DNA of 64,000 nucleotides. Origin: Candidatus Omnitrophota bacterium (GTDB lineage Bacteria > Omnitrophota > Gorgyraeia > Zapsychrales > Zapsychraceae). Below the pieces are notes generated by a model. It was not told the origin of the DNA, searched no databases, and saw nothing but the letters and a program-made list of their open reading frames with translations. Of this stretch, positions 1 to 54,049 are shown in pieces. Where the stretch lies: positions 69,275 to 133,274 of the forward strand of contig JAJDCA010000068.1 of assembly GCA_029261055.1 (NCBI GenBank), written 5' to 3'. The stretch's first letter is position 1, and each line of letters starts with the position of its first letter. Both the position numbers and the translations under genes were made by a program.

Positions 1-900
1 AACAGTATCAATACGGTTGTGCAGAACTTTCCAAGTTCCTTCTATATCTCCCAAAAATCTCAAGAAATCCAGACATACCAGGTCACGTAAAAAGTGCCCC
101 AATACACACCAAAAATAAGCTAATATAGAAAATTTATTTTTTTGGGCCAAGTAATACATGTTCTGTATCCAAACCCGCCTATACTTACGACGAAAAACTC
201 TTCCGGGAGGATCTTTTTCTTGATAACAAATCGATTTAGGTTGAAAAAAAAGTTTATAATCACGAGATATTCTATATGAAACATCGACATCATCTCCATG
301 CGCATAACCTCTCAGACGTTCATCAAAACGATACTTCTCAATAATCTCACGTCTCCAAAATGTACAACCACCAGAGACAAACTCTGTATCACAAAATTCT
401 TTCTTCCAATGAGGAAATGTCTGCGAACCACTAGCTAAAAATTTTCCATCTCCCTCATGCGGCATGAGAAAAAAGGCTTGAAAAGGTTTCCGGCGATACA
501 CCCATCCATCCACTGTTCCCATCCCACCTGCATACTGACATTGAGTATCCTTCTCAAAAACTTTAAGAATCTCTTCACAAAACAAATAATCAAGAGTGAT
601 ATCATCATCAAAAAAAACAACCAAATCCGTATCATCACAAGAATCTATCCCGATATGCCGTGCCAAAATAAGTGATTTTATCTTTCGATGAACATACTTT
701 TTCTTGATATTTCCTCTCGGAGGGTTCCATTCTTCAAATATATTCTGTGTCTTTTTATCATCACTCTGATCAATGACAATCACTTCATAAGGTAAAATGG
801 TTTGCTTTTCTACTGACTGAAGAAATTGCGGAATGAGTTGGAAACGATTGCATGTTGGAAGAATCAGACTGTACCGTAATATTTTGCTATCTTTGTCCAT
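1..900 (-). CDS. Family-2 glycosyltransferase (GT-A fold), 3'-truncated by the window edge
   Basis: I translated the reverse strand by hand. An uninterrupted frame runs from ATG (898-900) to position 1. It is absent from the supplied track because it has no stop inside the window. N-terminus MDKDSKILRYSLILPTCNRFQLIPQFLQSVEKQT...VIVIDQSDD...DLVVFFDDD shows the typical GT2 DxD and acidic motifs. Confidence 0.7.
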   Translation of the reverse strand, partial: MDKDSKILRYSLILPTCNRFQLIPQFLQSVEKQTILPYEVIVIDQSDDKKTQNIFEEWNPPRGNIKKKYVHRKIKSLILARHIGIDSCDDTDLVVFFDDDITLDYLFCEEILKVFEKDTQCQYAGGMGTVDGWVYRRKPFQAFFLMPHEGDGKFLASGSQTFPHWKKEFCDTEFVSGGCTFWRREIIEKYRFDERLRGYAHGDDVDVSYRISRDYKLFFQPKSICYQEKDPPGRVFRRKYRRVWIQNMYYLAQKNKFSILAYFWCVLGHFLRDLVCLDFLRFLGDIEGTWKVLHNRIDTV

Positions 901-910
901 AAGTTTTTAA

Positions 911-1609
911 TTAAACAACTAAACGTACTAAACAAAAAGCTTCGGCTTTCTCCACACCCACGGCCATTCCACGATAATTGGCCAATGTCTTTAACCCTTC
1001 ATTAGAACGAGGAAATGGAAAAGGTCTGGCCTCCCCTTCGTAACAGTGCCATGCTTCCATCTTCTTATCCCAGTATTGACTAATATCTACAAAAATATTG
1101 GGTTTAAAATATGGATTAAACTTCCATCCCCCACTGCAAATAATTTCAAATGTGTAAATTTCTTTTGGAATCCACTTCCGTGTTGGACGACAAGCAACTT
1201 CAACGGCCTCATATGTGATTCGATGATCTATATTAACTTCCGAAGGATTATGAGTAAAAAGAACCGTGGGCTGAAATGATTCCATTTCTTTTTCAATTTC
1301 TTTTACAATAGAAAGAAGAGGATGCGTATCAAATTGGGTACATAACATCTTCCCATATCGGACTCTTTCTATACCTAAAATCTCTAACGCGCTTTCTGCC
1401 TCTTTTTTTCTTTGAGCTGTTTGTTGAGCGAACTCCGGAGAATTATATTCTCCTACAGGGAACCGGGAAGAAACACCTTCCCCTAAAAAAATAACCGCTA
1501 TCTGAGCCCCTGCTTCTATTGCTTTAACCAAGGTCCCTCCACACCCTAATACCTCATCATCAGGATGTGCTGCTACCACTAAAAGGCGCGTTTTGGAATC
1601 AAAATACAT
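911..1609 (-). CDS. PIG-L/LmbE family N-acetylglucosaminyl deacetylase
   Basis: N-terminal LVVAAHPDDEVLGCGGT motif (AHPDDE, zinc-binding); 232 aa; AGGAGG Shine-Dalgarno 5 nt upstream of the ATG on the minus strand. Confidence 0.8.
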   Translation of the reverse strand: MYFDSKTRLLVVAAHPDDEVLGCGGTLVKAIEAGAQIAVIFLGEGVSSRFPVGEYNSPEFAQQTAQRKKEAESALEILGIERVRYGKMLCTQFDTHPLLSIVKEIEKEMESFQPTVLFTHNPSEVNIDHRITYEAVEVACRPTRKWIPKEIYTFEIICSGGWKFNPYFKPNIFVDISQYWDKKMEAWHCYEGEARPFPFPRSNEGLKTLANYRGMAVGVEKAEAFCLVRLVV

Positions 1610-1749
1610 TCTTCCTCCTTGATTTCATTTTAATCCAGCCCAATATATAATATTCGCAATACAAATCCGTAACCTTTTAAACTGTATTTTATGACAAGAA
1701 GGACCTTTTCAAAATAGGAACGTTTGTTTTACAAATGCTATTTTAAAAA

Positions 1750-2523
1750 TTATTCCCCACCGGCAACCGTTAAAATGCTTCCAGAGATATATGCACTTTC
1801 TTCAGATGCTAAAAAATAAACAGATGAGGCTATTTCATTGGGGTCAGCTAATCTCTTCAAAGGAATTAAGTCGATCCTTTTCTCAATATTTTTATTAGGG
1901 TTTAACTTTAAAAAGTCTGTATCCGTTAAACCAGCTCGAATAGCATTGACCAAAACATTATAAGGAGCTCCGGACTTCGCAAAAGAAATTGTCATAGCCT
2001 CTACTGCAGCTTTTGAAATAGTATAATGTGCAGAAATTGGATTTCCGCCGTATTTAACTCCAATACTGCTAATATTTATAATTCGACCACCGGCGCTTTC
2101 TTTCATATGCTTTAATGCAAATTGTGATAATAAAAATGATGCTTTTAGGTTTACATTTAAGACATAATCAAAATCTTCCTCTTTTATGCTTTCGATACTC
2201 TCAGAAATCGACATAGTCCCTGCATTATTAAAGAGAACATCCAATTTCTTGCATTTATCCATACATTGAGAGAAGACCTTCTCTACATTCTCAGATTGAG
2301 AAAGATCACTTTGAATCATTTCTAATTTTTCATGATTCAGTGCTCTGAGATTATCATCTGATCTAAAATAGTGCGCAAAAACAGTATACCCTTTTTCTAA
2401 AAAAAGTTTCGTTGTGGCTAATCCAATTCCACCATTAGCGCCTGTAATAAGAATAGTTTTACTGCTCATTGATATTTGCCCACTTTTCGAAATTAGGCCT
2501 CCCCATGACATCTCCGATGACAT
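1750..2523 (-). CDS. Short-chain dehydrogenase/reductase (SDR); true start probably the internal Met near 2469
   Basis: TGANGGIGLATTKLF Rossmann motif and YTISK (YxxxK) catalytic motif. The track start overlaps the upstream gene by 64 nt; the internal Met (MSSKTILITGANGG) gives an 11-nt overlap typical of coupled genes. Confidence 0.85.
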   Translation of the reverse strand: MSSEMSWGGLISKSGQISMSSKTILITGANGGIGLATTKLFLEKGYTVFAHYFRSDDNLRALNHEKLEMIQSDLSQSENVEKVFSQCMDKCKKLDVLFNNAGTMSISESIESIKEEDFDYVLNVNLKASFLLSQFALKHMKESAGGRIINISSIGVKYGGNPISAHYTISKAAVEAMTISFAKSGAPYNVLVNAIRAGLTDTDFLKLNPNKNIEKRIDLIPLKRLADPNEIASSVYFLASEESAYISGSILTVAGGE

Positions 2524-3379
2524 TACATTTATTACATGGGTTAAAATTACGATTTTCTTGGGAAAGCAATTTTCTTGCGGCTTGATACCTCTTACTTATC
2601 CAAAGTTCCCATAAATTCTTTTCAGATAAATTTCCAACGATATATCCCTTACCCCAATCATGCGGACACAAAATCATATCTCCATTATAGTCAACAAGGG
2701 TTTGATAAAATGGATAAAAACACTTTCTTTTTAATGGTAATTGCTCAATATCATCGTTTGTCTTATCTTGAAATTTATCAATTTCAATTACACCGGCCCG
2801 ATTTGAGAAGATAATTCCGTAATCGCCGTTGTTCTCATCAAAATATCTTCGCCTTAATACAAATTGACTCTCTGACAAATTTAGTGCATTTCTCATATTT
2901 AGAAATTCATCGTATGCACTTGGGCCGTCATAAATACTGATAGTAACTGTATCTAGGCCTTCTTCAAATAGCCTTACTAGTTTTTCGGTTCTTTTTTTAA
3001 AGATATCTCCATTGCTGTTTATTTCTAAACGCGCCTTCGGTAGAATGGTCTTGCTAATCTTGACCAATTCAGGAAGGTCTTTACTCAAAAAAGGTTCAGA
3101 AAAGGCTGAAATCAGGAGAGTCCCATCATAGTTAATCCCCTCTAAATCTTTCATTATTTTTGTGAATAACTTAATTGAGATTCCTTCATGTCTATTTGTA
3201 TAAAAAGACTCGTTAGAGACAGGGCAAAAACTGCAACTTCTATTACAAGCTCCGTAGACATTAAATTCGACAATAGTAAAAACGGGAAAACCATCAATTG
3301 TTCTTAAATTTCCGTCGTTTTCAACAAATTTTTGTTTCCTATAAATGCTCTGATCTGCAACATTATTCAATTTATTCAC
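2459..3379 (-). CDS. Radical SAM enzyme with a C-terminal Cys-rich (SPASM/twitch-like) region; BtrN-like dehydrogenase candidate
   Basis: CNRSCSFCP = canonical CxxxCxxC AdoMet-radical cluster motif near the N-terminus. Downstream cysteines (CPHDWG...CNKCN) suggest an auxiliary Fe-S cluster. Motif order (CNRxCxxCP...NGD...CNxCN) resembles aminocyclitol dehydrogenase BtrN, from memory. GTG start with GAGGAG SD. Confidence 0.65.
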   Translation of the reverse strand: MNKLNNVADQSIYRKQKFVENDGNLRTIDGFPVFTIVEFNVYGACNRSCSFCPVSNESFYTNRHEGISIKLFTKIMKDLEGINYDGTLLISAFSEPFLSKDLPELVKISKTILPKARLEINSNGDIFKKRTEKLVRLFEEGLDTVTISIYDGPSAYDEFLNMRNALNLSESQFVLRRRYFDENNGDYGIIFSNRAGVIEIDKFQDKTNDDIEQLPLKRKCFYPFYQTLVDYNGDMILCPHDWGKGYIVGNLSEKNLWELWISKRYQAARKLLSQENRNFNPCNKCNVIGDVMGRPNFEKWANINEQ

Positions 3380-3400
3380 TTTTTAGTCTCCTCAATAAAC

Positions 3401-3422
3401 CAAAAAAATCGCCTACGGCGAT
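3401..3422 (-). terminator. Intrinsic-terminator-like hairpin (ATCGCC-GTA-GGCGAT) followed on the minus strand by TTTTTTT, only ~22 nt upstream of the RBS of the radical SAM gene
   Basis: Read directly: forward caaaaaaATCGCCTACGGCGAT; the minus-strand RNA would be AUCGCCGUAGGCGAUUUUUUUGG then GAGGAG SD and GUG start. Confidence 0.5.
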
Positions 3423-3444
3423 AACCTGAGGCGTATTTTTGGTG

Positions 3445-3475
3445 CCGATAGGAAATTATATAATTTCCTATACGG
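3445..3475 (-). promoter_or_regulatory. Long AT-rich palindrome (perfect 24-bp ATAGGAAATTATATAATTTCCTAT, 3448-3471, extendable to 31 bp with one bulge): candidate operator or leader hairpin
   Basis: Read directly; it is centred in the 200-bp intergenic leader. A TTGACA hexamer lies ~60 nt upstream of it in the minus-strand sense. Confidence 0.45.
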
Positions 3476-3580
3476 TAAAAAAATATTCTGATTTATAGTT
3501 TTCTGAATGTCAAGGACAATTTGAATCGGAAGCTTATCCTATTTTTCAAAATTTAAAATACACTCATCTCCGAGAATTCC

Positions 3581-4678
3581 TCATCCCAATAGCACGGGTT
3601 GATACAACTCAAAATAGGATAAAATCTGGTTTTTAAGCCGCTCATCGAAAGGAACTTGAACTTTGAACATATCTCCAGCGCCACGTGTTAAAATGCATCC
3701 CACATTATTCCCAGTATTTTTTTTATCGCGCGAAAGTGCCTTCATGTAATCATCCGCACATTGCCGGGTTAAACGAAAATCTGGCAAATTCTTCTCTAAT
3801 ATTTTATGCAGAGCCGCGCGAGATTCCTCTTTAAGATAACCCAACGCAACAGATAAATGATTAGCGATATCCATACCCATAGTTACCGCTTGCCCATGAT
3901 TAATGCTGTAAGAGGTGACCGCTTCAATCGCATGGCCGAACGTATGGCCGTAATTAAAAACATTGCGCTTGTCTTTATCAAATTCATCAATTTCCACCAT
4001 TGCCTTTTTAATTTTTAAACTCTCTTCAATATACTCTGCCAAACTTTCCGGAGATTTAAGACACTCTGTATAACTTCTGATCAATTTTTCCGCCAAATCA
4101 ACTCGACCATCTACTAGGTAAAAATGGAGAATCTCACCTATGCCAGATTTGATTTCACTCTGCGGGAGTGTTTTAAGAAAATTTGCATCTATAAAAATTT
4201 CTTTCGGCGGATAAAATGCGCCCAAAAGATTTTTATAAGAACTGAAGTTAATGGAGCTTTTACTACCAATACAACTGTCGGCTTGAGAGAGCAGCGTCGT
4301 CGGAATAAAAACCCAGTCAATGCCTCTGTAGAGAACCGTACTGACAAACGCCGTAACATCCTGAATAATACCGCCACCCAATGCTATCAGTGTATGGTTT
4401 TTGCGAAAACCTTGACCAACCAGCCACAATAAAATCTCCTCGCACTTTTTTAGAGTTTTGTGTTCCTCTAAAGCTTCAACCACGTGAATACAACGTTCAT
4501 CAACCAAGTCCTTAAGACGATCATTGACCATATCTATGACAACTTTGTCAGCAATAACAAACACTTCATCACGATCCTTACCATCAAATGCGGCGATAAA
4601 ATCCTGAACAAAGAGCACCTGATAATCTTGTACCCGAGATTTAACTACGAAGTCCTCATGCATCAATAAATCCCCCAT
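3581..4678 (-). CDS. 3-dehydroquinate-synthase-like sugar phosphate cyclase superfamily enzyme
   Basis: GGGIIQDVTAFVSTVLYRGIDWVFIPTTLLSQADSCIGSKSSIN and NYGHTFGHAIE closely follow the DHQS nucleotide-binding and metal-binding signatures (GGGVxGD...RGI.F..VPTTLLAQVDSS.GGKT; N.GHTFGHAIE). 365 aa. Confidence 0.7.
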   Translation of the reverse strand: MGDLLMHEDFVVKSRVQDYQVLFVQDFIAAFDGKDRDEVFVIADKVVIDMVNDRLKDLVDERCIHVVEALEEHKTLKKCEEILLWLVGQGFRKNHTLIALGGGIIQDVTAFVSTVLYRGIDWVFIPTTLLSQADSCIGSKSSINFSSYKNLLGAFYPPKEIFIDANFLKTLPQSEIKSGIGEILHFYLVDGRVDLAEKLIRSYTECLKSPESLAEYIEESLKIKKAMVEIDEFDKDKRNVFNYGHTFGHAIEAVTSYSINHGQAVTMGMDIANHLSVALGYLKEESRAALHKILEKNLPDFRLTRQCADDYMKALSRDKKNTGNNVGCILTRGAGDMFKVQVPFDERLKNQILSYFELYQPVLLG

Positions 4679-5396
4679 CCACCGTGATATTTTTCCCCGT
4701 CAAATATGTATTAACATCGCTAGCTAAAAACAAGACCACCTTGGCTATTTCACCCGGATCGGCAAATCTCCCCACCGGTACGCGAGCGGTCAATTCCTCC
4801 ATTTCGTGCTTCTTTAGATTTTTTTTGGTTAAATCCGTGAGGACAAATCCGGGGGAAACCGAATTCACCAAAATACCGTGCGGCGCCAACTCATTGGATG
4901 CCGCCATCGTAAACCCGCGCAAGCCAAATTTTGTCGTCGTATAAATGGAGCGTTTAGGTTTACTGACCACCCCAAAAATCGAAGCAATATTAACGATCCG
5001 TCCGTACTTATGCTTCTTCATCATCGTGCTGACCGCTCTTGTTACGAGGAACGGTCCTTTTAAATTCACATCCACCATTTGATCCCATTCTTCCTCGGTG
5101 GCATCTTGAATAAAATTAAGCGCATTAATCCCAGCATTGTTAATACAAATATCAATACGTTTTTGTTTCTCTAATTCCCTAATAAAGGACTTCGTGCTTC
5201 GATCATCAGAAAAATCAACGCAGTAAAATGTCTTTCTAGGCTCACCTCCGGCGTTTAATTTCTCAATCTGAGTAGCATTTGTCCCTGTTAAAATCAAATC
5301 TGCCCCAAGACCGGCAAGTTCATCGGCAATGGCCTTCCCAATGCCGCGTGTCGCTCCGGTAACAAGAGCTTTTTTCCCTTTGAAATCTATTTTCAT
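4656..5396 (-). CDS. SDR family oxidoreductase (FabG-like ketoreductase)
   Basis: KKALVTGATRGIGKAIA glycine-rich motif and SDR-length Rossmann domain (246 aa). Confidence 0.85.
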   Translation of the reverse strand: MKIDFKGKKALVTGATRGIGKAIADELAGLGADLILTGTNATQIEKLNAGGEPRKTFYCVDFSDDRSTKSFIRELEKQKRIDICINNAGINALNFIQDATEEEWDQMVDVNLKGPFLVTRAVSTMMKKHKYGRIVNIASIFGVVSKPKRSIYTTTKFGLRGFTMAASNELAPHGILVNSVSPGFVLTDLTKKNLKKHEMEELTARVPVGRFADPGEIAKVVLFLASDVNTYLTGKNITVDGGFIDA

Positions 5397-5408
5397 ATTA
5401 AAATTTCA

Positions 5409-6380
5409 TTATGATTTTCGTTGGGCAAATGCCCTGATTAAATTTTCCACCGCCTCAACCTCCATGCGCCAACGGCATTCACGTGTGTAAGATCCAACAT
5501 GGGGTGTTAAAATGACTTGTTCGTACTTTAATAAGGCGCCATTGTAAGGCTCATCGACAAACACATCTAGCCATGCGCCGGCAATCCGCCCATCATCAAG
5601 GGCCTTTAAAAGAGCCTCTTCTTCAACAAGTTCCCCCCTGGCAGCGTTAAGTATAAGCCCTCCAGGCTTCATTAGAGCAAATTCATTACCCCCAAGAATG
5701 CATTGATCACCGCTGCTGTGAATCGTCACAATATCTGCTTTAGGCAGTGCCTCCTCAAGAGTTATGCATTCAACATTGGCTCCTCCGGAAAAAAACGGAT
5801 CGACAACAAGCCATCTTGCACCAAAGGCATCAAGTAAGGAAGCGATCTTTCTACCGATACGCCCGAATCCGATAATAACAACCGTCTTACCCTCCAATAA
5901 ACCGCCGATGCGCTTATTCCATTGACCAGCGTGGAGATCCTTGTTCATTTGATGCACCATGCGCAATAAATTAAGCATCGCCGCCAACGTTAATTCCGCC
6001 ACAGACGCTACCGGAACATCCGGCGTCGAGCACACAGTAATATCTAATTCTTCAGCCGCCTGCTGATCGACATTCGACATCCCTGATCCACAACGTGAAA
6101 TAACCTTTAAATCTGACTGCTCCATCACCTCACGGTCAAGGGGTTCAAGTCCCGCGATAAGCCCGGTCACACCATCCTTTAAGAGTTTTAGTAGCTCCTG
6201 CTTATTTAACCGCCGCTTAACGGGATTACCGATCACCGTCGCGCCTGACTTTTTTAGGTTATCCATCGGCGCTGAATCAAGTGCAGCAAAAGTTGACGGA
6301 CCTATAAGAATTTTCTGCCCCTTAAGCACTGGCACGACCGATTCTCCTATTTGATCATTCAAATGTGCCGGTTGGTTCAC
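5409..6380 (-). CDS. D-isomer-specific 2-hydroxyacid dehydrogenase family (NAD-dependent)
   Basis: GKTVVIIGFGRIGRKIA GxGxxG NAD-binding motif in mid-protein. Catalytic-domain layout typical of the D-2-hydroxyacid/phosphoglycerate dehydrogenase family. 323 aa. Confidence 0.8.
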   Translation of the reverse strand: MNQPAHLNDQIGESVVPVLKGQKILIGPSTFAALDSAPMDNLKKSGATVIGNPVKRRLNKQELLKLLKDGVTGLIAGLEPLDREVMEQSDLKVISRCGSGMSNVDQQAAEELDITVCSTPDVPVASVAELTLAAMLNLLRMVHQMNKDLHAGQWNKRIGGLLEGKTVVIIGFGRIGRKIASLLDAFGARWLVVDPFFSGGANVECITLEEALPKADIVTIHSSGDQCILGGNEFALMKPGGLILNAARGELVEEEALLKALDDGRIAGAWLDVFVDEPYNGALLKYEQVILTPHVGSYTRECRWRMEVEAVENLIRAFAQRKS

Positions 6381-7449
6381 AGAAAGGCTCCTTATGATTA
6401 ATCATGCTCATCATCGGATCGGTAATGTTATACTTCTCCCGCCATGCAGGGTCTGCATAATAAATTTTAAAAACCGTACACATGGTTTCCAAGGCCTCAC
6501 GGCTTGTCCCGTGCACAATCGGCGTCTTGTTAATAATAGCATCAGCAAATTCTTCAATCTCCCGCCGCCATGAATGATCCTCCAAATAATTAACGACGCT
6601 CTCCCGAAGAGAGCCAAAATCTGACTCACTTCGCTCACCGATTGTTAAGCGTTCTTCTCCGTAACTCTTACTTCCTGAAAGAATGCCTTCTAAACATAAA
6701 AATCCGTTTGTTAACGTAATATCCAATGAGAACCGGTGTTGCCATTGTGTAGCACTGGAATGCAAAATCGCTATACGTCCATTGGCATCCTTTAAAAGCG
6801 CATAGGCATTGTCTTCCACATCATGTTTCCAATAACTGTTGGAAATATGACTGTTCACTTCAACAAAATCTCCACAAAAAAGGCGCAACAAATCTACCAT
6901 GTGAATACCTTGATCTAACAAAATCCCTCCACCGGAGAATTTACGCTGTGCTCGCCATCCGGAGGAATATGAAACAATTTTACTTTTTCCGTAAACACCC
7001 CTGATGTTAATTATTTCACCAAGCTTCCCGGAACGTACCATCTTAAGCGCTTCACAAACCGAATCATGATAACGATGATTAAAACCGTATTTCAAAAACA
7101 GTCCTGGGTGCTCTTTCTCAACGGCAATAACATGTTCAATATCAGCCACGTCACGTCCTGGAGGCTTTTCACAGAAAACATGCAATCCCAACTTTAAACC
7201 AGCAATAGTCACTTCCGGCGCTAAATAATTTGGTAGGCAAACAAATAGTGCATCCAGATCTTCAGATAAAAGCTTTTTGTATTCGTTGTAGCAACGTGTT
7301 CCGTCGGTCAACGTACACGACTCTTTAAACGTTTTGTCGCAAACTGCAGTAACCTTTAAATATTCAAATTCATTAATAACCTTGTGGCGTCGTTTGCCAA
7401 CCAAACCGTAACCGGCAATCCCGATTTTATAAACTTTCTCACTGGACAC
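6355..7449 (-). CDS. Gfo/Idh/MocA family NAD(P)-dependent sugar oxidoreductase
   Basis: N-terminal KIGIAGYGLVGKRRHK Rossmann motif and ...EKP... motif characteristic of Gfo/Idh/MocA (inositol/sugar dehydrogenase) proteins. GTG start with AGAGGAAA SD. Confidence 0.8.
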   Translation of the reverse strand: MSSEKVYKIGIAGYGLVGKRRHKVINEFEYLKVTAVCDKTFKESCTLTDGTRCYNEYKKLLSEDLDALFVCLPNYLAPEVTIAGLKLGLHVFCEKPPGRDVADIEHVIAVEKEHPGLFLKYGFNHRYHDSVCEALKMVRSGKLGEIINIRGVYGKSKIVSYSSGWRAQRKFSGGGILLDQGIHMVDLLRLFCGDFVEVNSHISNSYWKHDVEDNAYALLKDANGRIAILHSSATQWQHRFSLDITLTNGFLCLEGILSGSKSYGEERLTIGERSESDFGSLRESVVNYLEDHSWRREIEEFADAIINKTPIVHGTSREALETMCTVFKIYYADPAWREKYNITDPMMSMINHKEPFCEPTGTFE

Positions 7450-7606
7450 GAATTTCCTCTAGTTGAATCAAGGGTATGAATCCCAGGGCAAGCCCTGGAC
7501 CCTATCAGCCGCAGCGAGCTGCGGGGGATTAAACCCGTTGGAGATTGGCTAAATAATTTTTTCAGCCAATCTCTTAATTAAATTAGCTTCGCGCTTAAAT
7601 AAAACC
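7450..7606 (-). other. GC-rich structured intergenic element (three consecutive stem-loops) between the stop of the 525-aa ORF and the RBS of the oxidoreductase gene
   Basis: Seen directly on the forward strand: inverted repeats GAGATTGGCT(13 nt)AGCCAATCTC and CCGCAGC-GA-GCTGCGG, plus CCAGGGC-AA-GCCCTGG nested inside AGGGT...ACCCT. It is much more GC-rich than the flanks. No U-tract follows any hairpin. Confidence 0.5.
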
Positions 7607-16798: not shown

Positions 16799-17566
16799 TT
16801 ATGCCTTAGCTGTTTTTTGTATAACATGTTCGTTAATTTTCTTCCACTTAGGATTCTTCTCAATAAGATTAAAAATATCTTCAATGGAAAATTCAGGATT
16901 GCGAGGATAAAGGTTCTCAATAATTTTGCTAACTAATTGAAAATCTTCAGGCGCATCAACCGTCCACCGATGATCTTTTTGATTTTTCTTATTACCGTAA
17001 GGACAAGCCCCTAATCGGAATATTTGAGGATTCCAATACAAATATGGCGTTACATGTTCTCGTTCAGGTGCAGTCTTTGCATTTTTATGGGCCTTGTCCA
17101 AGGCCTCAAATGAAAATATTTCAGAACCCATCCCTAACGGATAACTACGCCCCGGGACATCTGAGATAAAATCATACTTTTCCAAATAATACTGTTCAAT
17201 TAATTTATCAATTTCACCGGGATCAATTAAAGGACAATCTGAGGTGACTCTTACAATAGCATCCGCTTGCATCTCCTGAGCTGCCATAAAGTATCTCTCC
17301 AACACATTGTCTTCGGAACCACGAAATGTCTTAACAGATAAACTTTCACAAAGATCCAGTATAGGCTGTTCCTGAGATTTAACCGTCGTTGCCACACAAA
17401 TGTCATCGGCCCTTTGAACCCGCTTTAATCTTTCTAACAAATATTCAAGCAGGGATTTTCCCATGACTTCCTTCATTACCTTGCCTGGTAATCGTGTTGA
17501 ACCCATTCTGGCTTGTACAATAATAACTACCTTCATATTTTCCTTAAATTCCTTTAGCTCATTCAT
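16799..17566 (-). CDS. Acylneuraminate/nonulosonate cytidylyltransferase family (NeuA/PseF/SpsF-like CMP-sugar synthetase)
   Basis: VVIIVQARMGSTRLPGKVMKEV...RGSEDNVLERY motif pattern of the CTP_transf_3 family. 255 aa. Confidence 0.85.
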   Translation of the reverse strand: MNELKEFKENMKVVIIVQARMGSTRLPGKVMKEVMGKSLLEYLLERLKRVQRADDICVATTVKSQEQPILDLCESLSVKTFRGSEDNVLERYFMAAQEMQADAIVRVTSDCPLIDPGEIDKLIEQYYLEKYDFISDVPGRSYPLGMGSEIFSFEALDKAHKNAKTAPEREHVTPYLYWNPQIFRLGACPYGNKKNQKDHRWTVDAPEDFQLVSKIIENLYPRNPEFSIEDIFNLIEKNPKWKKINEHVIQKTAKA

Positions 17567-19398
17567 AAAAAAACTTTTAAATTTTCTTCATTCGGTTCTC
17601 GAAAATAATCATGTAAAACCTGTTGTGATATTTTCGTAAAAACGCCATTCCCTTTTTCATACATACAATCAATCGTACCAAGCTGCTGTTTTATTTGCGA
17701 AACGGTATTAACCGGTTCCAACAGATAATCCGAAGCTGCAAGGGGATCATAAAAAAATGTATTATCGGGAATGACACGAATCACAGGTATTTCAAAGCAA
17801 ACAGCCTCGAGTATTGTGATAGTCCCTCCTGTAGAAATAACAGCGTGTGATTTGGCAAACCATTCCTGTATACCCCCCTCATCAGCGAATATAGTGTCCT
17901 GCATATTGATCTTATGTAAATAATTTTTCAGTATTTTTTTCGATAACACCGGATGACTCCTAATACAAACTGTATATCCTTCTAACCCTTTCACAGCTTC
18001 TTTTACTTTGTCAACAAGTTCAAAAGCAAGATTATAACTAAACGTTAATGGCAATAAAAGAATTTTTTTGTTTTGACCAACGCGACACGTCTTTTGATTA
18101 TTATTTTTACAAGTATGCACAGATGAAATACGCAAATTGGGGCCATCTTCTAAAATATCCTTCGGAAATCTTGCCCGTTCATGCAGATTCCTATAGATCT
18201 GGCTGCTACAAACAATTCTGTCAGGTAACGGATGATAGTCTTTCTCATCAGGGGCCATATGAACCGTCAGCTGATTCGGATAAATTGCGGTATGCTGGAA
18301 CCCGGTAATATTTGTATCAGGATAATGCTTCCGACAAGATAAAACAAATTGTTTCTCTGATGCATTATTTTCATAGGCATAATAAAATTTGTCCACTTCA
18401 AAACCTTGCTGTCTTAATCGCCTCAACACAAAACCGCTTAAGTTCAAAATACATAATGATACGTCAAAACCTTGCTTTCGTAATGCCTCATTAAATAAAG
18501 GAGAAACATCTGTTTCTCGGATTTTAATCTCTTTGACATGCCTGTGAAATACCTTATATCCATTATATATTGACCTTACGTAGTCTGAAAATTTAAGATA
18601 ATGTTCGGGAATTAAAAAAGGCTGGTCATGATTTTTCAAATAGGCGTATATTTCCTTTGTCATTGATATATTAAAAAACATGGGCAAAATCCAGACGTCG
18701 CACCCCTTGGAGCGCAACCATCCTGGCAAATGCCCAAAGTTTCTGTCTTGAAATCCTTTTGAATCTTTAAGCGTCCCCTCAGTAATCCAACTTCGGATAA
18801 CAACACGTTTTTGGGCTGGCGCTTTTTTCTTCAATACTGGTTTAGGCACTTTAAGCGAAAGAATATAATTTCTTGTAATCTTCACAAAAAAACTGCCGAT
18901 CTGCATAAAATGATGCACAAAATTTTTCAAAGAATCTGCCCATTTATGAAATTTACCAGCATCTACCCGATACCCCTGCTCCTTTGCTATTTTGGATAAA
19001 CACGAAGACAATGCAGGGCTATTCACAATAAAAATAACATCTTTGTCCACCTTTGATAAAATTCGCTTTGCACAAATAAGGTATGTAATATTGAGAACTA
19101 ATGATATTGCGGAAGTACTTTTGGAAGCTATCTGCCCTCCCCACCATTCATAAGAATTATATTTTTTATTCAAGCCGAAAATTAATTCTACGATAGACTC
19201 TTTAAGCTCTTGAAACGTTTGATCAAAAATACCCGACAAATTTCTGATATCTATGACATGCTCAAATTTTTCCTTTAAGTTTGTATAATAACTATAATCA
19301 TCGTTTAAATAATAACAGAGCGAGTGGTTATTATCTACTTTTGAGAGCACTGACATACTTTTGTTAAAAGGGATAATTGTGACTTGTTTTGAAGGCAT
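17563..19398 (-). CDS. Large hypothetical protein (611 aa) with a GT-B-like C-terminal domain (TagF/KpsS-like glycosyl- or glycerophospho-transferase candidate)
   Basis: C-terminal ...CIRSHPV...SHAVISTGGTITILEAVCFEIPVI resembles the C-terminal nucleotide-binding half of GT-B/TagF-type enzymes. The N-terminal 400 aa are unassigned. Confidence 0.3.
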   Translation of the reverse strand: MPSKQVTIIPFNKSMSVLSKVDNNHSLCYYLNDDYSYYTNLKEKFEHVIDIRNLSGIFDQTFQELKESIVELIFGLNKKYNSYEWWGGQIASKSTSAISLVLNITYLICAKRILSKVDKDVIFIVNSPALSSCLSKIAKEQGYRVDAGKFHKWADSLKNFVHHFMQIGSFFVKITRNYILSLKVPKPVLKKKAPAQKRVVIRSWITEGTLKDSKGFQDRNFGHLPGWLRSKGCDVWILPMFFNISMTKEIYAYLKNHDQPFLIPEHYLKFSDYVRSIYNGYKVFHRHVKEIKIRETDVSPLFNEALRKQGFDVSLCILNLSGFVLRRLRQQGFEVDKFYYAYENNASEKQFVLSCRKHYPDTNITGFQHTAIYPNQLTVHMAPDEKDYHPLPDRIVCSSQIYRNLHERARFPKDILEDGPNLRISSVHTCKNNNQKTCRVGQNKKILLLPLTFSYNLAFELVDKVKEAVKGLEGYTVCIRSHPVLSKKILKNYLHKINMQDTIFADEGGIQEWFAKSHAVISTGGTITILEAVCFEIPVIRVIPDNTFFYDPLAASDYLLEPVNTVSQIKQQLGTIDCMYEKGNGVFTKISQQVLHDYFREPNEENLKVFL

Positions 19399-19434
19399 TT
19401 TTTCGACAAATTTAATAAATTTATTATGTTACGA

Positions 19435-20331
19435 CTACGTATTTATAAATTTTTTGTTCTCTGCTTTTGACCGGAACTGGTTAACATGATTTTTCACTCG
19501 TATCACACCCGCAGGGCTTTCCAACCATCTCTTTAGCCCTCCTAATTTTCCCGCTAAAACAGAGTATACAAGCGGCGTTTTAAGCTGCGGACATTTCGTG
19601 AACCGCACGGTATATCGCGCATAATCCCTTTGACCAACCAATTCCGGATCCATATACTGACCATCATTAGGATTTGTTGAAATAGATTCTTGCTTCCCCC
19701 AATAAAGGATACGGATATGGTTAAACCCTTCTTCTAAAGCAACATCGACGATTTCGGAAACGCTGATAATATCAAAATATACCAAACCTTTGCCACCGTT
19801 ATTATGAAAACCTTTATCTAAATCAGAAATCGTGCCCTCCTCGACACACCCCACAAAAGTCGTGCAAAAACTAATATTAATATGTTTTAAAACTTTTTTG
19901 ATTTGTTCCACAGGGTCTGGCATATGGTGGATAGCATGACGCTCATATCCATAATCATAATTTCGGTTAAATTCATATTTAGTAAAATCTGCTTGCACCC
20001 AATTGGCATCTGGAAACCGCTCGCAGGACTTGGAAAAACCCTTGTCAGAAACTTCAATTCCTGTGTAGTCACGTGTATCAATAATCCTCGAATTTTTCAA
20101 AAACTGATACCCCTGCCCCATGGCAGATCCAATTTCGACAATGCTCTTATTTTCGACAGGATTTTCAACCGTATAATAAAATGAGCGGTTAGGCCGTGTG
20201 AAATCATTGTCAAAGGGCCAATGAATCCAGCTCCATTGAGCATCAATGTATTTTCCATATGCATCATGTGCCCACACTTGACCTAAATCCTGTTGGTAAT
20301 ATTTTTCTTTATGATTCATAGCTCCCTCCAT
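19435..20331 (-). CDS. Putative class I SAM-dependent methyltransferase
   Basis: SIVEIGSAMGQGYQFL (motif I) ... GIEVSD (post I) ... ANWVQADFTKY (motif II) spacing typical of Rossmann MTases. 298 aa. Confidence 0.5.
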   Translation of the reverse strand: MEGAMNHKEKYYQQDLGQVWAHDAYGKYIDAQWSWIHWPFDNDFTRPNRSFYYTVENPVENKSIVEIGSAMGQGYQFLKNSRIIDTRDYTGIEVSDKGFSKSCERFPDANWVQADFTKYEFNRNYDYGYERHAIHHMPDPVEQIKKVLKHINISFCTTFVGCVEEGTISDLDKGFHNNGGKGLVYFDIISVSEIVDVALEEGFNHIRILYWGKQESISTNPNDGQYMDPELVGQRDYARYTVRFTKCPQLKTPLVYSVLAGKLGGLKRWLESPAGVIRVKNHVNQFRSKAENKKFINT

Positions 20332-20338
20332 TATGGTT

Positions 20339-21370
20339 TTATTCCAATAAATCCCAACTCAACGCGGTTCCTTTTTTAAGGTTTTCGCGTACCTTACGCC
20401 CAATAATCTCGGAAAAAACATCAGGTTTTAATCCTTGCGACGGACGAATGCTCCGGACATTTTTTTCATTAATAACATCCCCTTGAACCATATCTTCAAC
20501 AATAAAGAGTGACCGACGATATTTTTTACTTATAGACTCCCTGCCCTGCGGACCATATTTAACCTCGCCTAAGGCTTTTTCAACCGTTCTGATAGCATCA
20601 ACCATTTCCTTAAATTCATCCGGCTCCAAGGAAAATTCAGAGTCGGGACTTTTAACATTGCGGGAAACCGTTAAATGCCGTTCTATAACTGATGCCCCCA
20701 TGGCAACTGCCGCGACAGAGATATCCCTACCCATCGTGTGATCCGAAAGGCCCGTAACAATATCTAACGTCTGCGATAAATGTGGAAGGGCTTTAAGATT
20801 AATTTCATCAGGTTTTGCCGGATAAGTAGCAGTACATTTAAGCAAAGCGACTTGATCATTGCCCGACTCATTAACAGCCTTAACCGCCGCCTTAATTTCT
20901 TCCAGAGTTGCCATACCCGTTGACAAAATGACTGGCTTATTCCTTGAAGCAACATTCCTGATTAATGGGATATCGATGATCTCAGATGAAGCAATTTTAT
21001 AAGCAGGCACATTCATTTTTTCTAAAAAATCAACGGCCGTCGAATCAAATGGTGAAGAAAACAAATCAATTTTTAATTTCTCTGACGCACTCTTAAGTTC
21101 CGGATACCATTCCCATGGGGTATGGGCCTCTTTAAACAGATCATATAATGATTGGCCTTTAAAAATAAAATTCTCATTCTGACAGTCGATGGTCATCGTA
21201 TCAGGGGTATAGGTCTGTATCTTGACAGCATCTGCCCCCGCATTTTTTGCCGCTTCCATGATCTTAAGAGCATTCGCTAAATTCTGACCATGGTTGGCAG
21301 ACATTTCCGCAATTATATATACTGGTTCTCCAGGACCGATCGTGCGATTATTTATTATTATTGATTTCAT
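20339..21370 (-). CDS. NeuB-family nonulosonic acid synthase (sialic/pseudaminic/legionaminic acid synthase) with C-terminal SAF domain
   Basis: IGPGEPVYIIAEMSANHGQNLANALKIMEAAKNAGADAVKIQTY is the canonical NeuB/PseI N-terminus. C-terminal SAF/antifreeze-like domain. 343 aa. Confidence 0.9.
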   Translation of the reverse strand: MKSIIINNRTIGPGEPVYIIAEMSANHGQNLANALKIMEAAKNAGADAVKIQTYTPDTMTIDCQNENFIFKGQSLYDLFKEAHTPWEWYPELKSASEKLKIDLFSSPFDSTAVDFLEKMNVPAYKIASSEIIDIPLIRNVASRNKPVILSTGMATLEEIKAAVKAVNESGNDQVALLKCTATYPAKPDEINLKALPHLSQTLDIVTGLSDHTMGRDISVAAVAMGASVIERHLTVSRNVKSPDSEFSLEPDEFKEMVDAIRTVEKALGEVKYGPQGRESISKKYRRSLFIVEDMVQGDVINEKNVRSIRPSQGLKPDVFSEIIGRKVRENLKKGTALSWDLLE

Positions 21371-22122: not shown

Positions 22123-22127
22123 TTTTT

Positions 22128-23719: not shown

Positions 23720-23721
23720 AT

Positions 23722-51675: not shown

Positions 51676-51696
51676 TTTTAAATTTGATCAGATTAT

Positions 51697-52977: not shown

Positions 52978-53002
52978 TACTTGTTCCTTTTTTTAGCAGC
53001 CT

Positions 53003-53722: not shown

Positions 53723-53789
53723 TAGATGACTCCTATCTGGATATTTCCGTCTGCCATTTTCTGATTAACTTCATATTGATCCCCCTTAT

Positions 53790-54035
53790 TCATTCGTTGC
53801 TCTGGATCCTTTTTTTAATAGCGACACACATCTCTCCCACATTTCTAAAGCTTTGGATTTCAGCTGATGTAAATCGAATATTAAAATGTTTTTCTATTCC
53901 CACAACGATTTGAATATTATTAAGCGAATCCCAGGCTTTAATGTCATTGACCGTCGTTGAGTCTTCGAGGATAATATTCTTCTCTTCAAGAACATTAATA
54001 AATATAGTGTTGACTTGATTTAATACGTCTGTCAT
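53790..54035 (-). CDS. Acyl carrier protein
   Basis: 81 aa, acidic. IKAWDSLNNIQIV contains the DSL phosphopantetheine-attachment motif at the usual position. Confidence 0.7.
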   Translation of the reverse strand: MTDVLNQVNTIFINVLEEKNIILEDSTTVNDIKAWDSLNNIQIVVGIEKHFNIRFTSAEIQSFRNVGEMCVAIKKRIQSNE

Positions 54036-54049
54036 AAAATAGTCCCTCC

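What the first reader, a model, noticed from the sequence alone, without database searches (positions are those of the whole stretch)
2459..7449. Cyclitol/aminocyclitol-like enzyme block inside a surface-glycan locus
Five consecutive genes encode a DHQS-like sugar-phosphate cyclase, a BtrN-like twitch/SPASM radical SAM enzyme, a Gfo/Idh/MocA dehydrogenase, two SDRs and a D-2-hydroxyacid dehydrogenase. The DHQS-like fold is the scaffold of 2-deoxy-scyllo-inosose synthase and sedoheptulose-7-P cyclases. BtrN-type radical SAM dehydrogenases and inositol-dehydrogenase-like Gfo/Idh/MocA enzymes are the classic partners in aminocyclitol pathways. Here they sit in an LPS/capsule-type cluster. The cluster also carries aminotransferases, dedicated transketolases (a route to C7 ketose phosphates), kinases and nucleotidyltransferases. 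This suggests a carbocyclic (cyclitol-like) or otherwise rearranged sugar is built and attached to a cell-surface polymer. I do not know this to be described.
Basis: partly seen in the sequence, partly recalled or inferred. Interest (0 to 1): 0.75.

Follow-up and report, generated by a model that had tools for sequence, protein, structure and literature searches.

The report
AroB-like enzyme block for acidic sugar
The genes are real and belong to a widespread but biochemically uncharacterised cassette in which a dehydroquinate-synthase-like enzyme and several dehydrogenases probably build an unusual CMP-activated acidic sugar, possibly a carbocyclic one, for a cell-surface polymer; it is not an aminoglycoside-type aminocyclitol pathway.

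Summary
The DHQS-like protein (3581-4678) passes NCBIfam TIGR04425, [quoted passage not shown], and fails the aroB cutoff. It still keeps every AroB catalytic, metal and phosphate residue, and the Lys/Arg pair I recall as the carboxylate ligands. The radical SAM protein is BtrN-like, with all four auxiliary-cluster cysteines.

Comparative genomics changes the interpretation. The conserved unit is GFO, GmhA-like isomerase, 2-hydroxyacid dehydrogenase, SDR and DHQS-like. It almost always sits with a KdsB-like CMP-transferase and often with an HpcH aldolase, across many phyla. The BtrN-like gene travels as a separate rSAM+SDR pair beside KdsB-like genes. It was never next to a DHQS-like gene in 40-45 other loci. 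The window is therefore a mosaic, and a GC3 step suggests the DHQS module was acquired horizontally.

My best reading is a CMP-activated C7 sugar acid. The DHQS-like enzyme eliminates phosphate from a DAHP-like 7-phosphate and the SDR reduces the product. Whether the ring closes to a carbocycle is unresolved. I found no published characterisation. Interest is moderate to high. Novelty: a new variant of a known kind.

The parts
3581..4678 (-). DHQS-like enzyme of family TIGR04425 ('AroB-related putative sugar phosphate phospholyase (cyclizing)'). The real start is probably M6 at 4663.
   Evidence: Pfam DHQ_synthase + DHQS_C. TIGR04425 425.5 bits against cutoff 400; aroB 272.7 against cutoff 305. 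All AroB catalytic, metal and phosphate residues are kept, as are the Lys/Arg equivalent to K250/R264. The AF2 model has pLDDT 90 and TM 0.84 to AroB.
4656..5396 (-). SDR1, a FabG-like ketoreductase whose gene overlaps the start of the DHQS-like gene (translational coupling inferred).
   Evidence: adh_short_C2 3e-56. An orthologous SDR lies immediately upstream of the DHQS-like gene in 41 of 50 related loci. It is 67% identical to the L001 partner.
5409..6380 (-). D-2-hydroxyacid dehydrogenase, phosphoglycerate-dehydrogenase-like.
   Evidence: 2-Hacid_dh_C 2e-44. Best PDB hits are PGDHs (1wwk, 1.8e-45). It is 55-65% identical to the cassette orthologues in L001 and L003.
6355..7449 (-). Gfo/Idh/MocA oxidoreductase. 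The EKP motif is present.
   Evidence: Pfam. Best PDB hits are inositol dehydrogenases, aldose oxidoreductases and GFOR. It is 59-66% identical to cassette orthologues.
2459..3379 (-). BtrN-like radical SAM enzyme with a CX3CX2C motif plus a four-Cys twitch auxiliary-cluster domain.
   Evidence: BtrN (4m7t) at E 2.8e-19 over residues 33-288, with the auxiliary-cluster Cys aligned. C45, C49, C52, C220, C238, C282 and C285 are invariant in 32 homologues.
1750..2523 (-). SDR2, the reductase partner of the radical SAM gene.
   Evidence: adh_short_C2 8e-50. It is 81% identical to the SDR that follows the rSAM gene in L172. An SDR is present with the rSAM gene, usually directly downstream, in 30 of 45 loci.
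9963..10799 (-). KdsB-like CMP-(ulosonic acid) synthetase.
   Evidence: CTP_transf_3 1e-48. NF009905 280 bits against cutoff 255. A CTP_transf_3 gene is present in about 15 of 18 type-A loci.
10748..11548 (-). HpcH/HpaI class II pyruvate aldolase.
   Evidence: HpcH_HpaI 5.5e-39. Best PDB hits are GarL, YfaU and HpaI. It is 49-59% identical to the aldolases of L001, L088 and L172.
7607..9184 (-). Unknown 525-aa protein inserted in the cassette. Whether it takes part in the pathway is unknown.
   Evidence: No Pfam or NCBIfam hit. Only 19 homologues exist, all in glycan loci. A confident model has no full-length structural match.
9198..9953 (-). Methyltransferase (Methyltransf_24), probably a tailoring enzyme.
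   Evidence: Pfam 2e-7. Other methyltransferases occupy a similar position in L003, L005 and L088.
11741..13573 (-). NodU/CmcH-type O-carbamoyltransferase, probably a tailoring enzyme.
   Evidence: Carbam_trans_N 2e-105 and Carbam_trans_C 3e-72. The same family lies inside the cassette in L001.
911..1609 (-). PIG-L/LmbE-type de-N-acetylase, peripheral to the block.
   Evidence: PIG-L 3e-24. It recurs near the rSAM gene only in L110.

Best explanation
The block is part of a pathway for a CMP-activated acidic (2-ulosonic-acid-type) sugar destined for a surface glycan. It is a mosaic of two modules attached to an HpcH-aldolase/KdsB-like core.

Module 1 is GFO, 2HADH, SDR1 and the DHQS-like enzyme. 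In relatives it also includes a GmhA-like isomerase, which is missing here and is presumably supplied by a housekeeping GmhA.

Proposed route; every step is inferred from family chemistry and none is shown:
1. Sedoheptulose-7-P is isomerised to an aldoheptose-7-P.
2. GFO oxidises C1 to give heptonate-7-P.
3. The PGDH/PdxB-like 2HADH makes the 2-keto acid.
4. The DHQS-like enzyme binds this DAHP-like carboxylate/7-phosphate substrate and runs the DHQS half-reaction: NAD+-mediated oxidation, beta-elimination of phosphate, then re-reduction.
5. The coupled SDR1 reduces the carbonyl that results.
6. The KdsB-like enzyme makes the CMP ester.

My preferred product, by a small margin, is a terminally deoxygenated (7-deoxy) heptulosonic acid that remains a normal glycosyl donor. 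Ring closure to a DHQ-like carbocycle is the main alternative.

Module 2 is the BtrN-like rSAM plus SDR2. It oxidises a secondary alcohol of the sugar without NAD, and the SDR re-reduces the ketone. The net result is epimerisation or, less likely, deoxygenation.

The role of the HpcH aldolase is unresolved. It may add pyruvate or hydroxypyruvate.
For: - Domain and family assignments.
- A conserved cassette, HpcH / CTP_transf_3 / GFO / SIS / 2HADH / SDR / DHQS-like, occurs in Scalindua, Omnitrophota, Syntrophales, Cytophagaceae, Acidobacteriota, Patescibacteria and Coxiellaceae.
- At HMM sensitivity, about 15 of 18 close loci hold all five of GFO, SIS, 2HADH, SDR and DHQS-like. About 15 hold a CTP_transf_3 and 10 hold HpcH.
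- An SDR lies directly upstream of the DHQS-like gene in 41 of 50 loci.
- Residues R130, D146, K152, N162, E194, K250, R264, N268, H271, H275, H287 and K356 (A. nidulans numbering) are invariant in all 50 glycan-locus homologues.
- The cassette isomerase is GmhA-like, with the phosphate loop and both His ligands kept (PDB 5ltz, 2.6e-26).
- 2HADH is closest to phosphoglycerate dehydrogenases. GFO is closest to inositol and aldose dehydrogenases.
- In the nearest relative of the rSAM gene (L172), 2HADH-epimerase-HAD phosphatase occupies the place of GFO-2HADH-SDR1-DHQS-like. This suggests the DHQS-like enzyme is the phosphate-removing step.
- GC3 is 0.37-0.45 across 3581-7449 and 0.27-0.34 in the flanks.
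- The rSAM gene is BtrN-like. It pairs with an SDR in 30 of 45 loci and with KdsB-like genes in 22 of 45.
- The aldose-P to aldonate-P to 2-keto-aldonate-P logic has a precedent in Epd/PdxB of PLP biosynthesis (established knowledge).
Against: - No step has been tested biochemically.
- Every characterised member of the AroB superfamily cyclises its substrate. A non-cyclising outcome would be unprecedented, and the enol-pyranose intermediate of DHQS is known to cyclise spontaneously.
- HpcH has no necessary role in the proposed route, yet it is present here and in 10 of 18 relatives.
- The window lacks the isomerase gene.
- The roles of R264 and K250 as carboxylate ligands come from my memory of the DHQS structure papers. 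I did not re-verify them here.
- GFO enzymes can oxidise many positions, so the C1 assignment is a guess.
- In L016 the HpcH unit and the DHQS unit each have their own 2HADH and CTP_transf_3. The single-pathway reading of the window is therefore not secure.
Confidence: 0.45

Rival explanations
1. True carbocycle. The DHQS-like enzyme completes the full DHQS-type reaction on a heptulosonate-7-P, or on a DAHP epimer made by HpcH from pyruvate plus a tetrose-4-P. The product is a DHQ-like cyclitol carboxylate. SDR1 reduces its ring ketone. GFO (inositol-dehydrogenase-like) and the BtrN-like enzyme then tailor the ring hydroxyls. The tertiary C1-OH/COOH centre mimics the anomeric centre of Kdo and is CMP-activated, or the cyclitol acid is attached as a substituent.
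For: All characterised superfamily members cyclise (established knowledge), and NCBI names the family '(cyclizing)'. All DHQS catalytic residues are kept. The best PDB hits of GFO are inositol dehydrogenases. BtrN, the only solved relative of the rSAM protein, acts on a cyclitol. The strict SDR partner fits reduction of a cyclitol ketone.
Against: Glycosyl transfer from a CMP ester of a saturated tertiary carbocyclic alcohol has no precedent and is chemically hard. Yet a KdsB-like gene is the most constant neighbour. The rSAM and GFO genes also occur in CMP-sugar loci that have no DHQS-like gene, so they are not cyclitol-specific. No ligase or acyltransferase that could attach a cyclitol acid is conserved.
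Confidence: 0.25
2. The block is an aminocyclitol (2-deoxystreptamine-like) pathway, analogous to BtrC + BtrS + BtrN (+ BtrD deacetylase), that feeds a surface polymer.
For: A DHQS-like gene, a BtrN-like gene and a PIG-L deacetylase lie side by side. DegT aminotransferases exist elsewhere in the window.
Against: The DHQS-like protein is closer to AroB (2.9e-49) than to DOIS (1.7e-35), and it keeps the residues equivalent to AroB K250/R264. There is no aminotransferase in the block or in the conserved cassette. The rSAM and DHQS-like genes never co-occur elsewhere. The adjacency is a recent mosaic junction, marked by a GC3 step and a 200-bp gap. The conserved partner is a CMP-transferase.
Confidence: 0.05
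3. The DHQS-like protein is simply a second, ordinary 3-dehydroquinate synthase. It makes DHQ from DAHP for a quinate- or shikimate-derived decoration, or it has no role in the glycan at all.
For: All AroB ligand residues are conserved. It is about 30-40% identical to AroBs, with TM 0.84.
Against: It falls below the aroB cutoff and above the TIGR04425 cutoff. It separates from the sampled AroBs in 100 of 100 NJ bootstraps, although those AroBs come from a single phylum. Family-specific substitutions occur next to ligand residues: Ser to Cys after D146, GGK to G(S/A)K, HGE to HG(Q/I/L), KA to KK, and K197 to His. Its glycan-locus neighbourhood is fixed across phyla.
Confidence: 0.07
4. The DHQS-like protein acts only as a metal/NAD-dependent dehydrogenase, like its superfamily relatives glycerol-1-P dehydrogenase and glycerol dehydrogenase, without eliminating phosphate. 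Phosphate would be removed by an unlinked phosphatase.
For: There are weak Fe-ADH_2 and G1PDH profile hits. Related cassettes of type C use a HAD phosphatase.
Against: The residues used by DHQS for phosphate binding and elimination are all invariant. Type-A cassettes lack any phosphatase. Similarity to AroB is far greater than to G1PDH (272 against 36 bits).
Confidence: 0.08

Closest known systems
3-Dehydroquinate synthase (AroB, TIGR01357)
   Same: Same fold (TM 0.84) and about 30-40% identity. The metal ligands, phosphate ligands and the K250/R264-equivalent residues are identical. The first three chemical steps are therefore probably the same: oxidation, phosphate elimination and re-reduction.
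   Different: It scores below the aroB cutoff and forms a separate clade. It carries family-specific substitutions beside ligand residues. Its context is a glycan locus with a coupled SDR, not an aromatic amino-acid operon. The substrate is probably a different C7 sugar-acid phosphate.
NCBIfam TIGR04425, 'AroB-related putative sugar phosphate phospholyase (cyclizing)' (hypothetical equivalog)
   Same: The window protein passes the curated cutoff (425.5 against 400), as do relatives from Coxiellaceae, cyanobacteria and others.
   Different: The family has no experimentally defined function. The window copy lacks the usual GmhA-like neighbour and is uniquely juxtaposed with a BtrN-like gene.
Butirosin/neomycin 2-deoxystreptamine genes (BtrC DOIS, BtrS, BtrN, BtrD)
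   Same: A DHQS-superfamily enzyme, a BtrN-type twitch radical SAM enzyme and a PIG-L-type deacetylase lie in a row. The four auxiliary-cluster Cys of BtrN are conserved.
   Different: There is no adjacent aminotransferase. The cyclase-like enzyme is AroB-like, not DOIS-like. The two genes are not conserved partners. The pathway ends in a CMP-transferase inside a polysaccharide locus.
Kdo pathway (KdsD isomerase, KdsA synthase, KdsC phosphatase, KdsB CMP-transferase) and NulO pathways
   Same: There is a sugar-phosphate isomerase in relatives, a C-C bond-forming enzyme that makes a 2-keto acid, a phosphate-removal step and a KdsB-like CMP-transferase (NF009905 above cutoff).
   Different: The condensing enzyme is a class II pyruvate aldolase (HpcH), not a PEP-dependent KdsA/NeuB. 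The isomerase is GmhA-like. Phosphate is apparently removed by a DHQS-like lyase, not by a HAD phosphatase. Three extra dehydrogenases are present.
Sedoheptulose-7-P cyclases (EEVS ValA, DDGS, EVS)
   Same: Same superfamily, and a heptose-phosphate origin is plausible because relatives carry a GmhA-like partner.
   Different: They are much more distant in sequence (ValA 5e-25, DDGS 6e-22, against AroB 3e-49). The window protein keeps the Arg/Lys that in DHQS hold the carboxylate. This last point rests on memory and was not re-verified.
Epd/PdxB steps of PLP biosynthesis
   Same: They offer a precedent for converting an aldose phosphate to an aldonate phosphate and then to a 2-keto-aldonate phosphate. 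The second step uses a D-2-hydroxyacid dehydrogenase that is PGDH-like, as the cassette enzyme is.
   Different: The chain length differs (C4 against a proposed C7), and the first dehydrogenase here belongs to the GFO family. This is an analogy only.

Membership tests
Sugar phosphate cyclase / DHQS superfamily | Two-domain DHQS fold (DHQ_synthase N-terminal + DHQS_C) | tested here: met
   Pfam 5e-36 and 1e-30. AF2 model with pLDDT 90 and TM 0.79-0.85 to DHQS, DOIS and ValA.
Sugar phosphate cyclase / DHQS superfamily | Metal ligands (E194, H271, H287) and phosphate/catalytic residues (R130, K152, N162, N268, H275, K356) | tested here: met
   All are present in the window protein (E182, H245, H261, R118, K140, N150, N242, H249, K319/320). 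All are invariant in 50 glycan-locus homologues.
Bona fide AroB (TIGR01357) | Score at or above the curated equivalog cutoff | tested here: not met
   272.7 bits against a cutoff of 305. Ten relatives score 238-277.
Bona fide AroB (TIGR01357) | Clusters with housekeeping AroB sequences | tested here: not met
   The glycan-locus proteins split from 27 AroBs in 100 of 100 NJ bootstraps. Mean identity to them is 0.30. Caveat: all the AroBs sampled come from Campylobacterota.
Bona fide AroB (TIGR01357) | DAHP carboxylate ligands (K250, R264) | tested here: met
   K224 and R238 are invariant. Their role as carboxylate ligands is recalled from the DHQS structure literature and was not re-verified.
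TIGR04425 AroB-related putative phospholyase | Score at or above the curated cutoff | tested here: met
   425.5 bits against a cutoff of 400.
TIGR04425 AroB-related putative phospholyase | Conserved glycan-locus neighbourhood with an upstream SDR | tested here: met
   SDR1 overlaps the start of the DHQS-like gene. The same arrangement is found in 41 of 50 loci.
2-Deoxy-scyllo-inosose synthase / aminocyclitol pathway | Closer to DOIS than to DHQS | tested here: not met
   DOIS 2d2x at 1.7e-35 against AroB 3clh at 2.9e-49.
2-Deoxy-scyllo-inosose synthase / aminocyclitol pathway | A linked inosose aminotransferase (BtrS-type) | tested here: not met
   There is no aminotransferase in 900-13600 or in the conserved cassette. 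The nearest DegT is at 25828.
Sedoheptulose-7-P cyclases (EEVS/DDGS/EVS) | Sequence affinity to ValA or DDGS and their active-site fingerprint | tested here: not met
   ValA 5.3e-25 and DDGS 5.8e-22, both far weaker than AroB. The 14-residue fingerprint itself could not be scored because the reference paper is not held.
BtrN-type radical SAM dehydrogenase | CX3CX2C radical SAM cluster motif | tested here: met
   C45-x3-C49-x2-C52 is invariant.
BtrN-type radical SAM dehydrogenase | Twitch domain with four Cys for one auxiliary [4Fe-4S] cluster | tested here: met
   C220, C238, C282 and C285 align with the four Cys of the BtrN C-terminal (twitch) domain in 4m7t, which by my recollection ligate its auxiliary cluster. 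They are invariant in 32 homologues.
BtrN-type radical SAM dehydrogenase | Oxidises a cyclitol (2-deoxy-scyllo-inosamine) hydroxyl | not testable with these tools
   Only about 30% identity to BtrN. The genomic partners are an SDR and KdsB-like genes, and in 15 of 40 loci a DegT, never a DHQS-like gene.
CMP-ulosonic acid (Kdo/NulO-type) pathway | KdsB/NeuA-family cytidylyltransferase | tested here: met
   NF009905 280 bits against cutoff 255; kdsB TIGR00466 170 against 155.
CMP-ulosonic acid (Kdo/NulO-type) pathway | PEP-dependent KdsA/NeuB-type synthase for this sugar | tested here: not met
   The only NeuB homologue in the window is a PseI (449 bits) in a separate pseudaminic-acid gene set. 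The cassette carries an HpcH pyruvate aldolase instead.
CMP-ulosonic acid (Kdo/NulO-type) pathway | The product is a 2-keto sugar acid transferred to a glycan | not testable with these tools
   Inferred only from gene content.

The most novel reading that the evidence does not exclude
The cassette makes a carbocyclic analogue of a 2-ulosonic acid. This would be a DHQ-like cyclitol carboxylate derived from a heptose phosphate. It would be reduced, tailored by an inositol-dehydrogenase-like enzyme and a BtrN-like radical SAM enzyme, CMP-activated at its tertiary hydroxyl, and built into a cell-surface polymer in many uncultured phyla.
Probability: 0.2. Interest if true: 0.9.

Novelty: new variant of a known kind. 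Interest (0 to 1): 0.6.

Why it matters
The AroB superfamily is known for primary aromatic metabolism and for secondary-metabolite cyclitols. Here a distinct branch is hard-wired to CMP-sugar genes in surface-glycan loci. It occurs from Planctomycetota and Omnitrophota to Patescibacteria, Coxiellaceae and Thaumarchaeota.

Either outcome would be new glycobiology:
- a phosphate-elimination route to terminally deoxygenated ulosonic acids, parallel to the NDP-sugar 4,6-dehydratase logic; or
- a carbocyclic sugar acid on the cell surface.

The cassette is small, five to seven soluble enzymes with a plausible central-metabolite substrate. The question can therefore be tested directly in vitro.

Tried and rejected
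- **Literature.** All ten full-text searches found no description of the cassette. They combined dehydroquinate synthase, sugar phosphate cyclase, BtrN, HpcH, KdsB, cytidylyltransferase, nonulosonic, O-antigen and bradyrhizose. The bradyrhizose paper says its genes are unknown and lists no DHQS-like gene.
- **Cyclase fingerprint.** The Kean et al. 2014 paper on the cyclase fingerprint is not held. The 14-residue EEVS/DDGS/DOIS fingerprint could not be scored.
- **Exact look-up of the 365-aa DHQS-like protein** failed because of a start-codon difference. The source genome is in NCBI (a 202.5-kb contig) but carries no name, so the organism remains unidentified.
- **Missing isomerase.** tblastn across all 64 kb found no SIS homologue.
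- **K197-to-His substitution.** I tested whether it tracks the presence of GFO, SIS and 2HADH. It does not do so cleanly.
- **Structure prediction** of the DHQS-like protein does not discriminate DHQS from DOIS or ValA.
- **Promoter and terminator scans** give counts no higher than shuffled sequence. A hairpin plus T-run at 3422-3408 in the DHQS/rSAM gap may mark the module junction, but this is not significant.
- **Rfam** found nothing in the window.
- **Transketolase idea rejected.** The transketolases are unlikely to feed this block. They lie 35-50 kb away and are absent from all related cassettes.

Full report
**Observation**

The window is one long minus-strand glycan locus with about 38% GC. 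The reported interval holds five intact genes:
- a radical SAM/SPASM protein (2459-3379);
- a DHQS-like protein (3581-4678);
- an SDR (4656-5396);
- a D-2-hydroxyacid dehydrogenase (5409-6380);
- a Gfo/Idh/MocA oxidoreductase (6355-7449).

A second SDR (1750-2523) and a PIG-L deacetylase (911-1609) follow them. Upstream in the transcription direction lie:
- an unknown 525-aa protein (7607-9184);
- a methyltransferase (9198-9953);
- a KdsB-like cytidylyltransferase (9963-10799);
- an HpcH/HpaI aldolase (10748-11548);
- an O-carbamoyltransferase (11741-13573).

The only correction is that the second SDR lies outside the stated coordinates.

**The DHQS-like protein**

It passes NCBIfam TIGR04425, [quoted passage not shown], a hypothetical equivalog, at 425.5 bits against a cutoff of 400. 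It fails the aroB model at 272.7 against 305.

Among solved structures it is closest to AroBs. H. pylori 3clh scores 2.9e-49, DOIS 1.7e-35, ValA 5e-25 and DDGS 6e-22. A confident AF2 model (pLDDT 90) has the DHQS fold but does not discriminate between these enzymes.

I aligned 50 glycan-locus homologues and 27 housekeeping AroBs. Every DHQS catalytic, metal and phosphate residue is invariant in both groups. So are the Lys and Arg that, as I recall from the DHQS-carbaphosphonate structures, hold the DAHP carboxylate.

The glycan-locus group differs at neighbouring positions:
- D-S-C instead of D-A/S-S;
- G-S/A-K instead of GGK;
- HG(Q/I/L) instead of HGE;
- KK instead of KA;
- His instead of K197 in most close relatives.

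This group separates from the sampled AroBs in 100 of 100 NJ bootstraps. The AroBs sampled all come from one phylum. I conclude that the chemistry is the same as in DHQS and that the substrate is probably DAHP-like, with a carboxylate and a 7-phosphate, but is not DAHP itself.

**Conserved neighbourhood of the DHQS-like gene**

Only a 4-kb Logan contig and an unnamed 202-kb NCBI contig carry the identical protein. The next relatives are at most 59% identical.

Three relatives with long contigs (an unnamed 338-kb metagenome contig, Ca. Scalindua rubra and Omnitrophota) show the same order: HpcH, CTP_transf_3, GFO, SIS, 2HADH, SDR, DHQS-like.

I scanned species-representative genomes and did my own ORF, BLAST and HMM analysis. 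Two groups emerged.
- **Type A** (at least about 43% identity). GFO, a GmhA-like SIS, 2HADH, an SDR and the DHQS-like gene co-occur in about 15 of 18 loci. A CTP_transf_3 is present in about 15 and HpcH in 10. NeuB is present instead of HpcH in two.
- **Type B** (36-42% identity). An ALS-like TPP enzyme, an SDR and a DHQS-like gene occur with an FGGY kinase, an HMGL-like or HpcH-like aldolase, a HAD or a NeuB-like gene.

An SDR lies immediately upstream of the DHQS-like gene in 41 of 50 loci. Hosts include Syntrophales, Cytophagaceae, Acidobacteriota, Dehalococcoidia, Patescibacteria, Thaumarchaeota, Balneolaceae, Coxiellaceae and Lachnospiraceae.

The cassette isomerase is GmhA-like, with the phosphate loop and both His ligands conserved. 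The window has no such gene anywhere.

**The radical SAM protein**

BtrN is the only significant solved relative (E 2.8e-19, full length). The CX3CX2C motif and the four auxiliary-cluster cysteines are invariant in the family. "BtrN-like twitch enzyme" is therefore correct.

Among 45 loci of at least 6 kb from a metagenome scan:
- 30 have an SDR with the rSAM gene, usually directly downstream;
- 22 have a KdsB-like gene;
- 16 have a 2HADH;
- 11 have HpcH;
- none has a DHQS-like gene;
- by the HMM survey of 40 loci of at least 8 kb, 15 have a DegT.

In Campylobacterota, for example Aliarcobacter butzleri, the order is fixed: HpcH, KdsB-like, methyltransferase, rSAM, SDR, 2HADH, epimerase, PF04199 cyclase, HAD.

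The closest relative with context is L172, whose rSAM is 71% and whose SDR is 81% identical to the window's. Its order is HpcH, CTP_transf_3, unknown, 2HADH, epimerase, HAD, GT2, rSAM, SDR. Compared with L172, the window has GFO-2HADH-SDR1-DHQS-like where L172 has 2HADH-epimerase-HAD.

The four genes at 3581-7449 have GC3 of 0.37-0.45, against 0.27-0.34 in the flanks. A 200-bp gap separates them from the rSAM gene. The DHQS/BtrN adjacency is therefore a lineage-specific mosaic, not a conserved aminocyclitol unit.

**Mechanism (inferred, nothing shown)**

The most economical assignment gives each conserved type-A enzyme its family-typical reaction.
1. The GmhA-like isomerase converts sedoheptulose-7-P to an aldoheptose-7-P.
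2. GFO oxidises C1. Aldose 1-dehydrogenases are common in this family.
3. The PGDH/PdxB-like 2HADH makes the 2-keto acid. This parallels the Epd/PdxB steps of PLP synthesis.
4. The DHQS-like enzyme then sees a DAHP-like heptulosonate-7-P. It removes the phosphate by oxidation, elimination and re-reduction.
5. The coupled SDR reduces the new carbonyl.
6. The KdsB-like enzyme makes the CMP donor.

The order of steps 3 and 4 decides the product. If the lyase acts before the 2-keto group exists, the product is a 7-deoxy-heptulosonic acid. If it acts after, spontaneous aldol closure gives a DHQ-like carbocycle.

A CMP-transferase is almost always present, and glycosyl transfer from a carbocyclic tertiary centre is chemically difficult. 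For these reasons I slightly prefer the deoxy-sugar outcome. Superfamily precedent favours cyclisation.

The substitution of HAD by the DHQS-like enzyme relative to L172 supports the idea that this enzyme is the phosphate-removing step.

The rSAM+SDR2 pair most likely oxidises and then re-reduces a secondary alcohol, giving an epimer. In loci with a DegT, it probably prepares a ketone for amination.

HpcH is unexplained. L016 has separate HpcH-2HADH-CTP3 and 2HADH-GFO-SIS-SDR-DHQS-CTP3 units. The aldolase may therefore belong to a second, merged route, for example addition of hydroxypyruvate or pyruvate to an aldehyde.

**Comparison and novelty**

The block works like DHQS chemistry grafted onto a Kdo-type activation pathway.
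- It is not AroB: it fails the cutoff, forms a separate clade and sits in a different context.
- It is not DOIS or EEVS: the similarity is weaker, no aminotransferase is linked, and the K250/R264-equivalent residues are retained.
- It is a member of TIGR04425, a family that NCBI curators have named but whose function is unknown.
- Ten literature searches found no characterisation.

I rate it a new variant of a known kind. The window's combination with a BtrN-like module and its loss of the isomerase are local peculiarities.

**Limits**

- The organism is unidentified.
- No biochemical data exist.
- The carboxylate-ligand argument rests on recalled structural literature.
- The AroB outgroup was phylogenetically narrow.
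- The product structure is a hypothesis.

Noticed in passing
[not shown]
   Followed up: partly
window 16799-26973 (-): A separate pseudaminic-acid gene set. It holds PseI (20339-21370; TIGR03586 at 449 bits), a second CTP_transf_3 (16799-17566), WbqC (21367-22122), a hexapeptide acyltransferase (23051-23719) and a DegT (25828-26973). The KdsB-like/HpcH cassette therefore makes a second, different CMP-sugar.
   Followed up: partly
window 42373-45189 and 57543-60422 (-): There are two copies of a split transketolase (separate N-terminal and pyrimidine/C-terminal subunits). Each is followed by an APH-type kinase. The first also has an SDR and Zn-ADHs nearby. This looks like a duplicated module for a two-carbon transfer onto a sugar. 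It is unrelated to the conserved DHQS cassette.
   Followed up: no
window 50233-56673 (-): An FkbH-like protein (54958-56673), an MBOAT (50233-51675), an SDR (53003-53722) and a methyltransferase (54050-54979) lie together. This suggests a glyceryl- or acyl-carrier-based O-acylation of the polymer.
   Followed up: no
window 3581-7449: There is a GC3 step. The DHQS-like, SDR1, 2HADH and GFO genes have GC3 of 0.37-0.45, against 0.27-0.34 for the flanking genes. This is consistent with horizontal acquisition of the four-gene module.
   Followed up: yes
window 3380-3580: The 200-bp gap between the DHQS-like and rSAM genes holds, on the minus strand, a TTGACA-17-CAGAAT promoter-like site (3513-3485), a perfect AT-rich palindrome, and a GC hairpin plus T-run (3422-3408) just before the rSAM ribosome-binding site. 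Such matches are no more frequent than in shuffled sequence.
   Followed up: partly
L020-L054 (e.g. L042, Butyrivibrio sp. MB2005, 9926-11047): A second, more distant group of glycan-locus DHQS-like genes is always arranged as ALS-like TPP enzyme, SDR, DHQS-like. It is accompanied by an FGGY kinase, an HMGL-like or HpcH-like aldolase, a HAD or a NeuB-like gene. It is uncharacterised, and it occurs in cultured Lachnospiraceae that could be studied.
   Followed up: partly
L088/L089 (Aliarcobacter butzleri), L113, L120, L124, L129, L132, L166: A tightly conserved Campylobacterota cassette has the order HpcH, KdsB-like, (FkbM methyltransferase), BtrN-like rSAM, SDR, 2HADH, epimerase, PF04199 'cyclase', HAD. 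It appears to be an uncharacterised CMP-sugar pathway in a cultivable genus.
   Followed up: partly
L016 2000-13500 (Balneolaceae chromosome OZ252262.1): Two separable units lie side by side, each with its own 2HADH and CTP_transf_3. One is HpcH-2HADH-CTP3...HAD. The other is 2HADH-GFO-SIS-SDR-DHQS-like...CTP3. This suggests that the aldolase route and the DHQS route can be independent pathways.
   Followed up: partly
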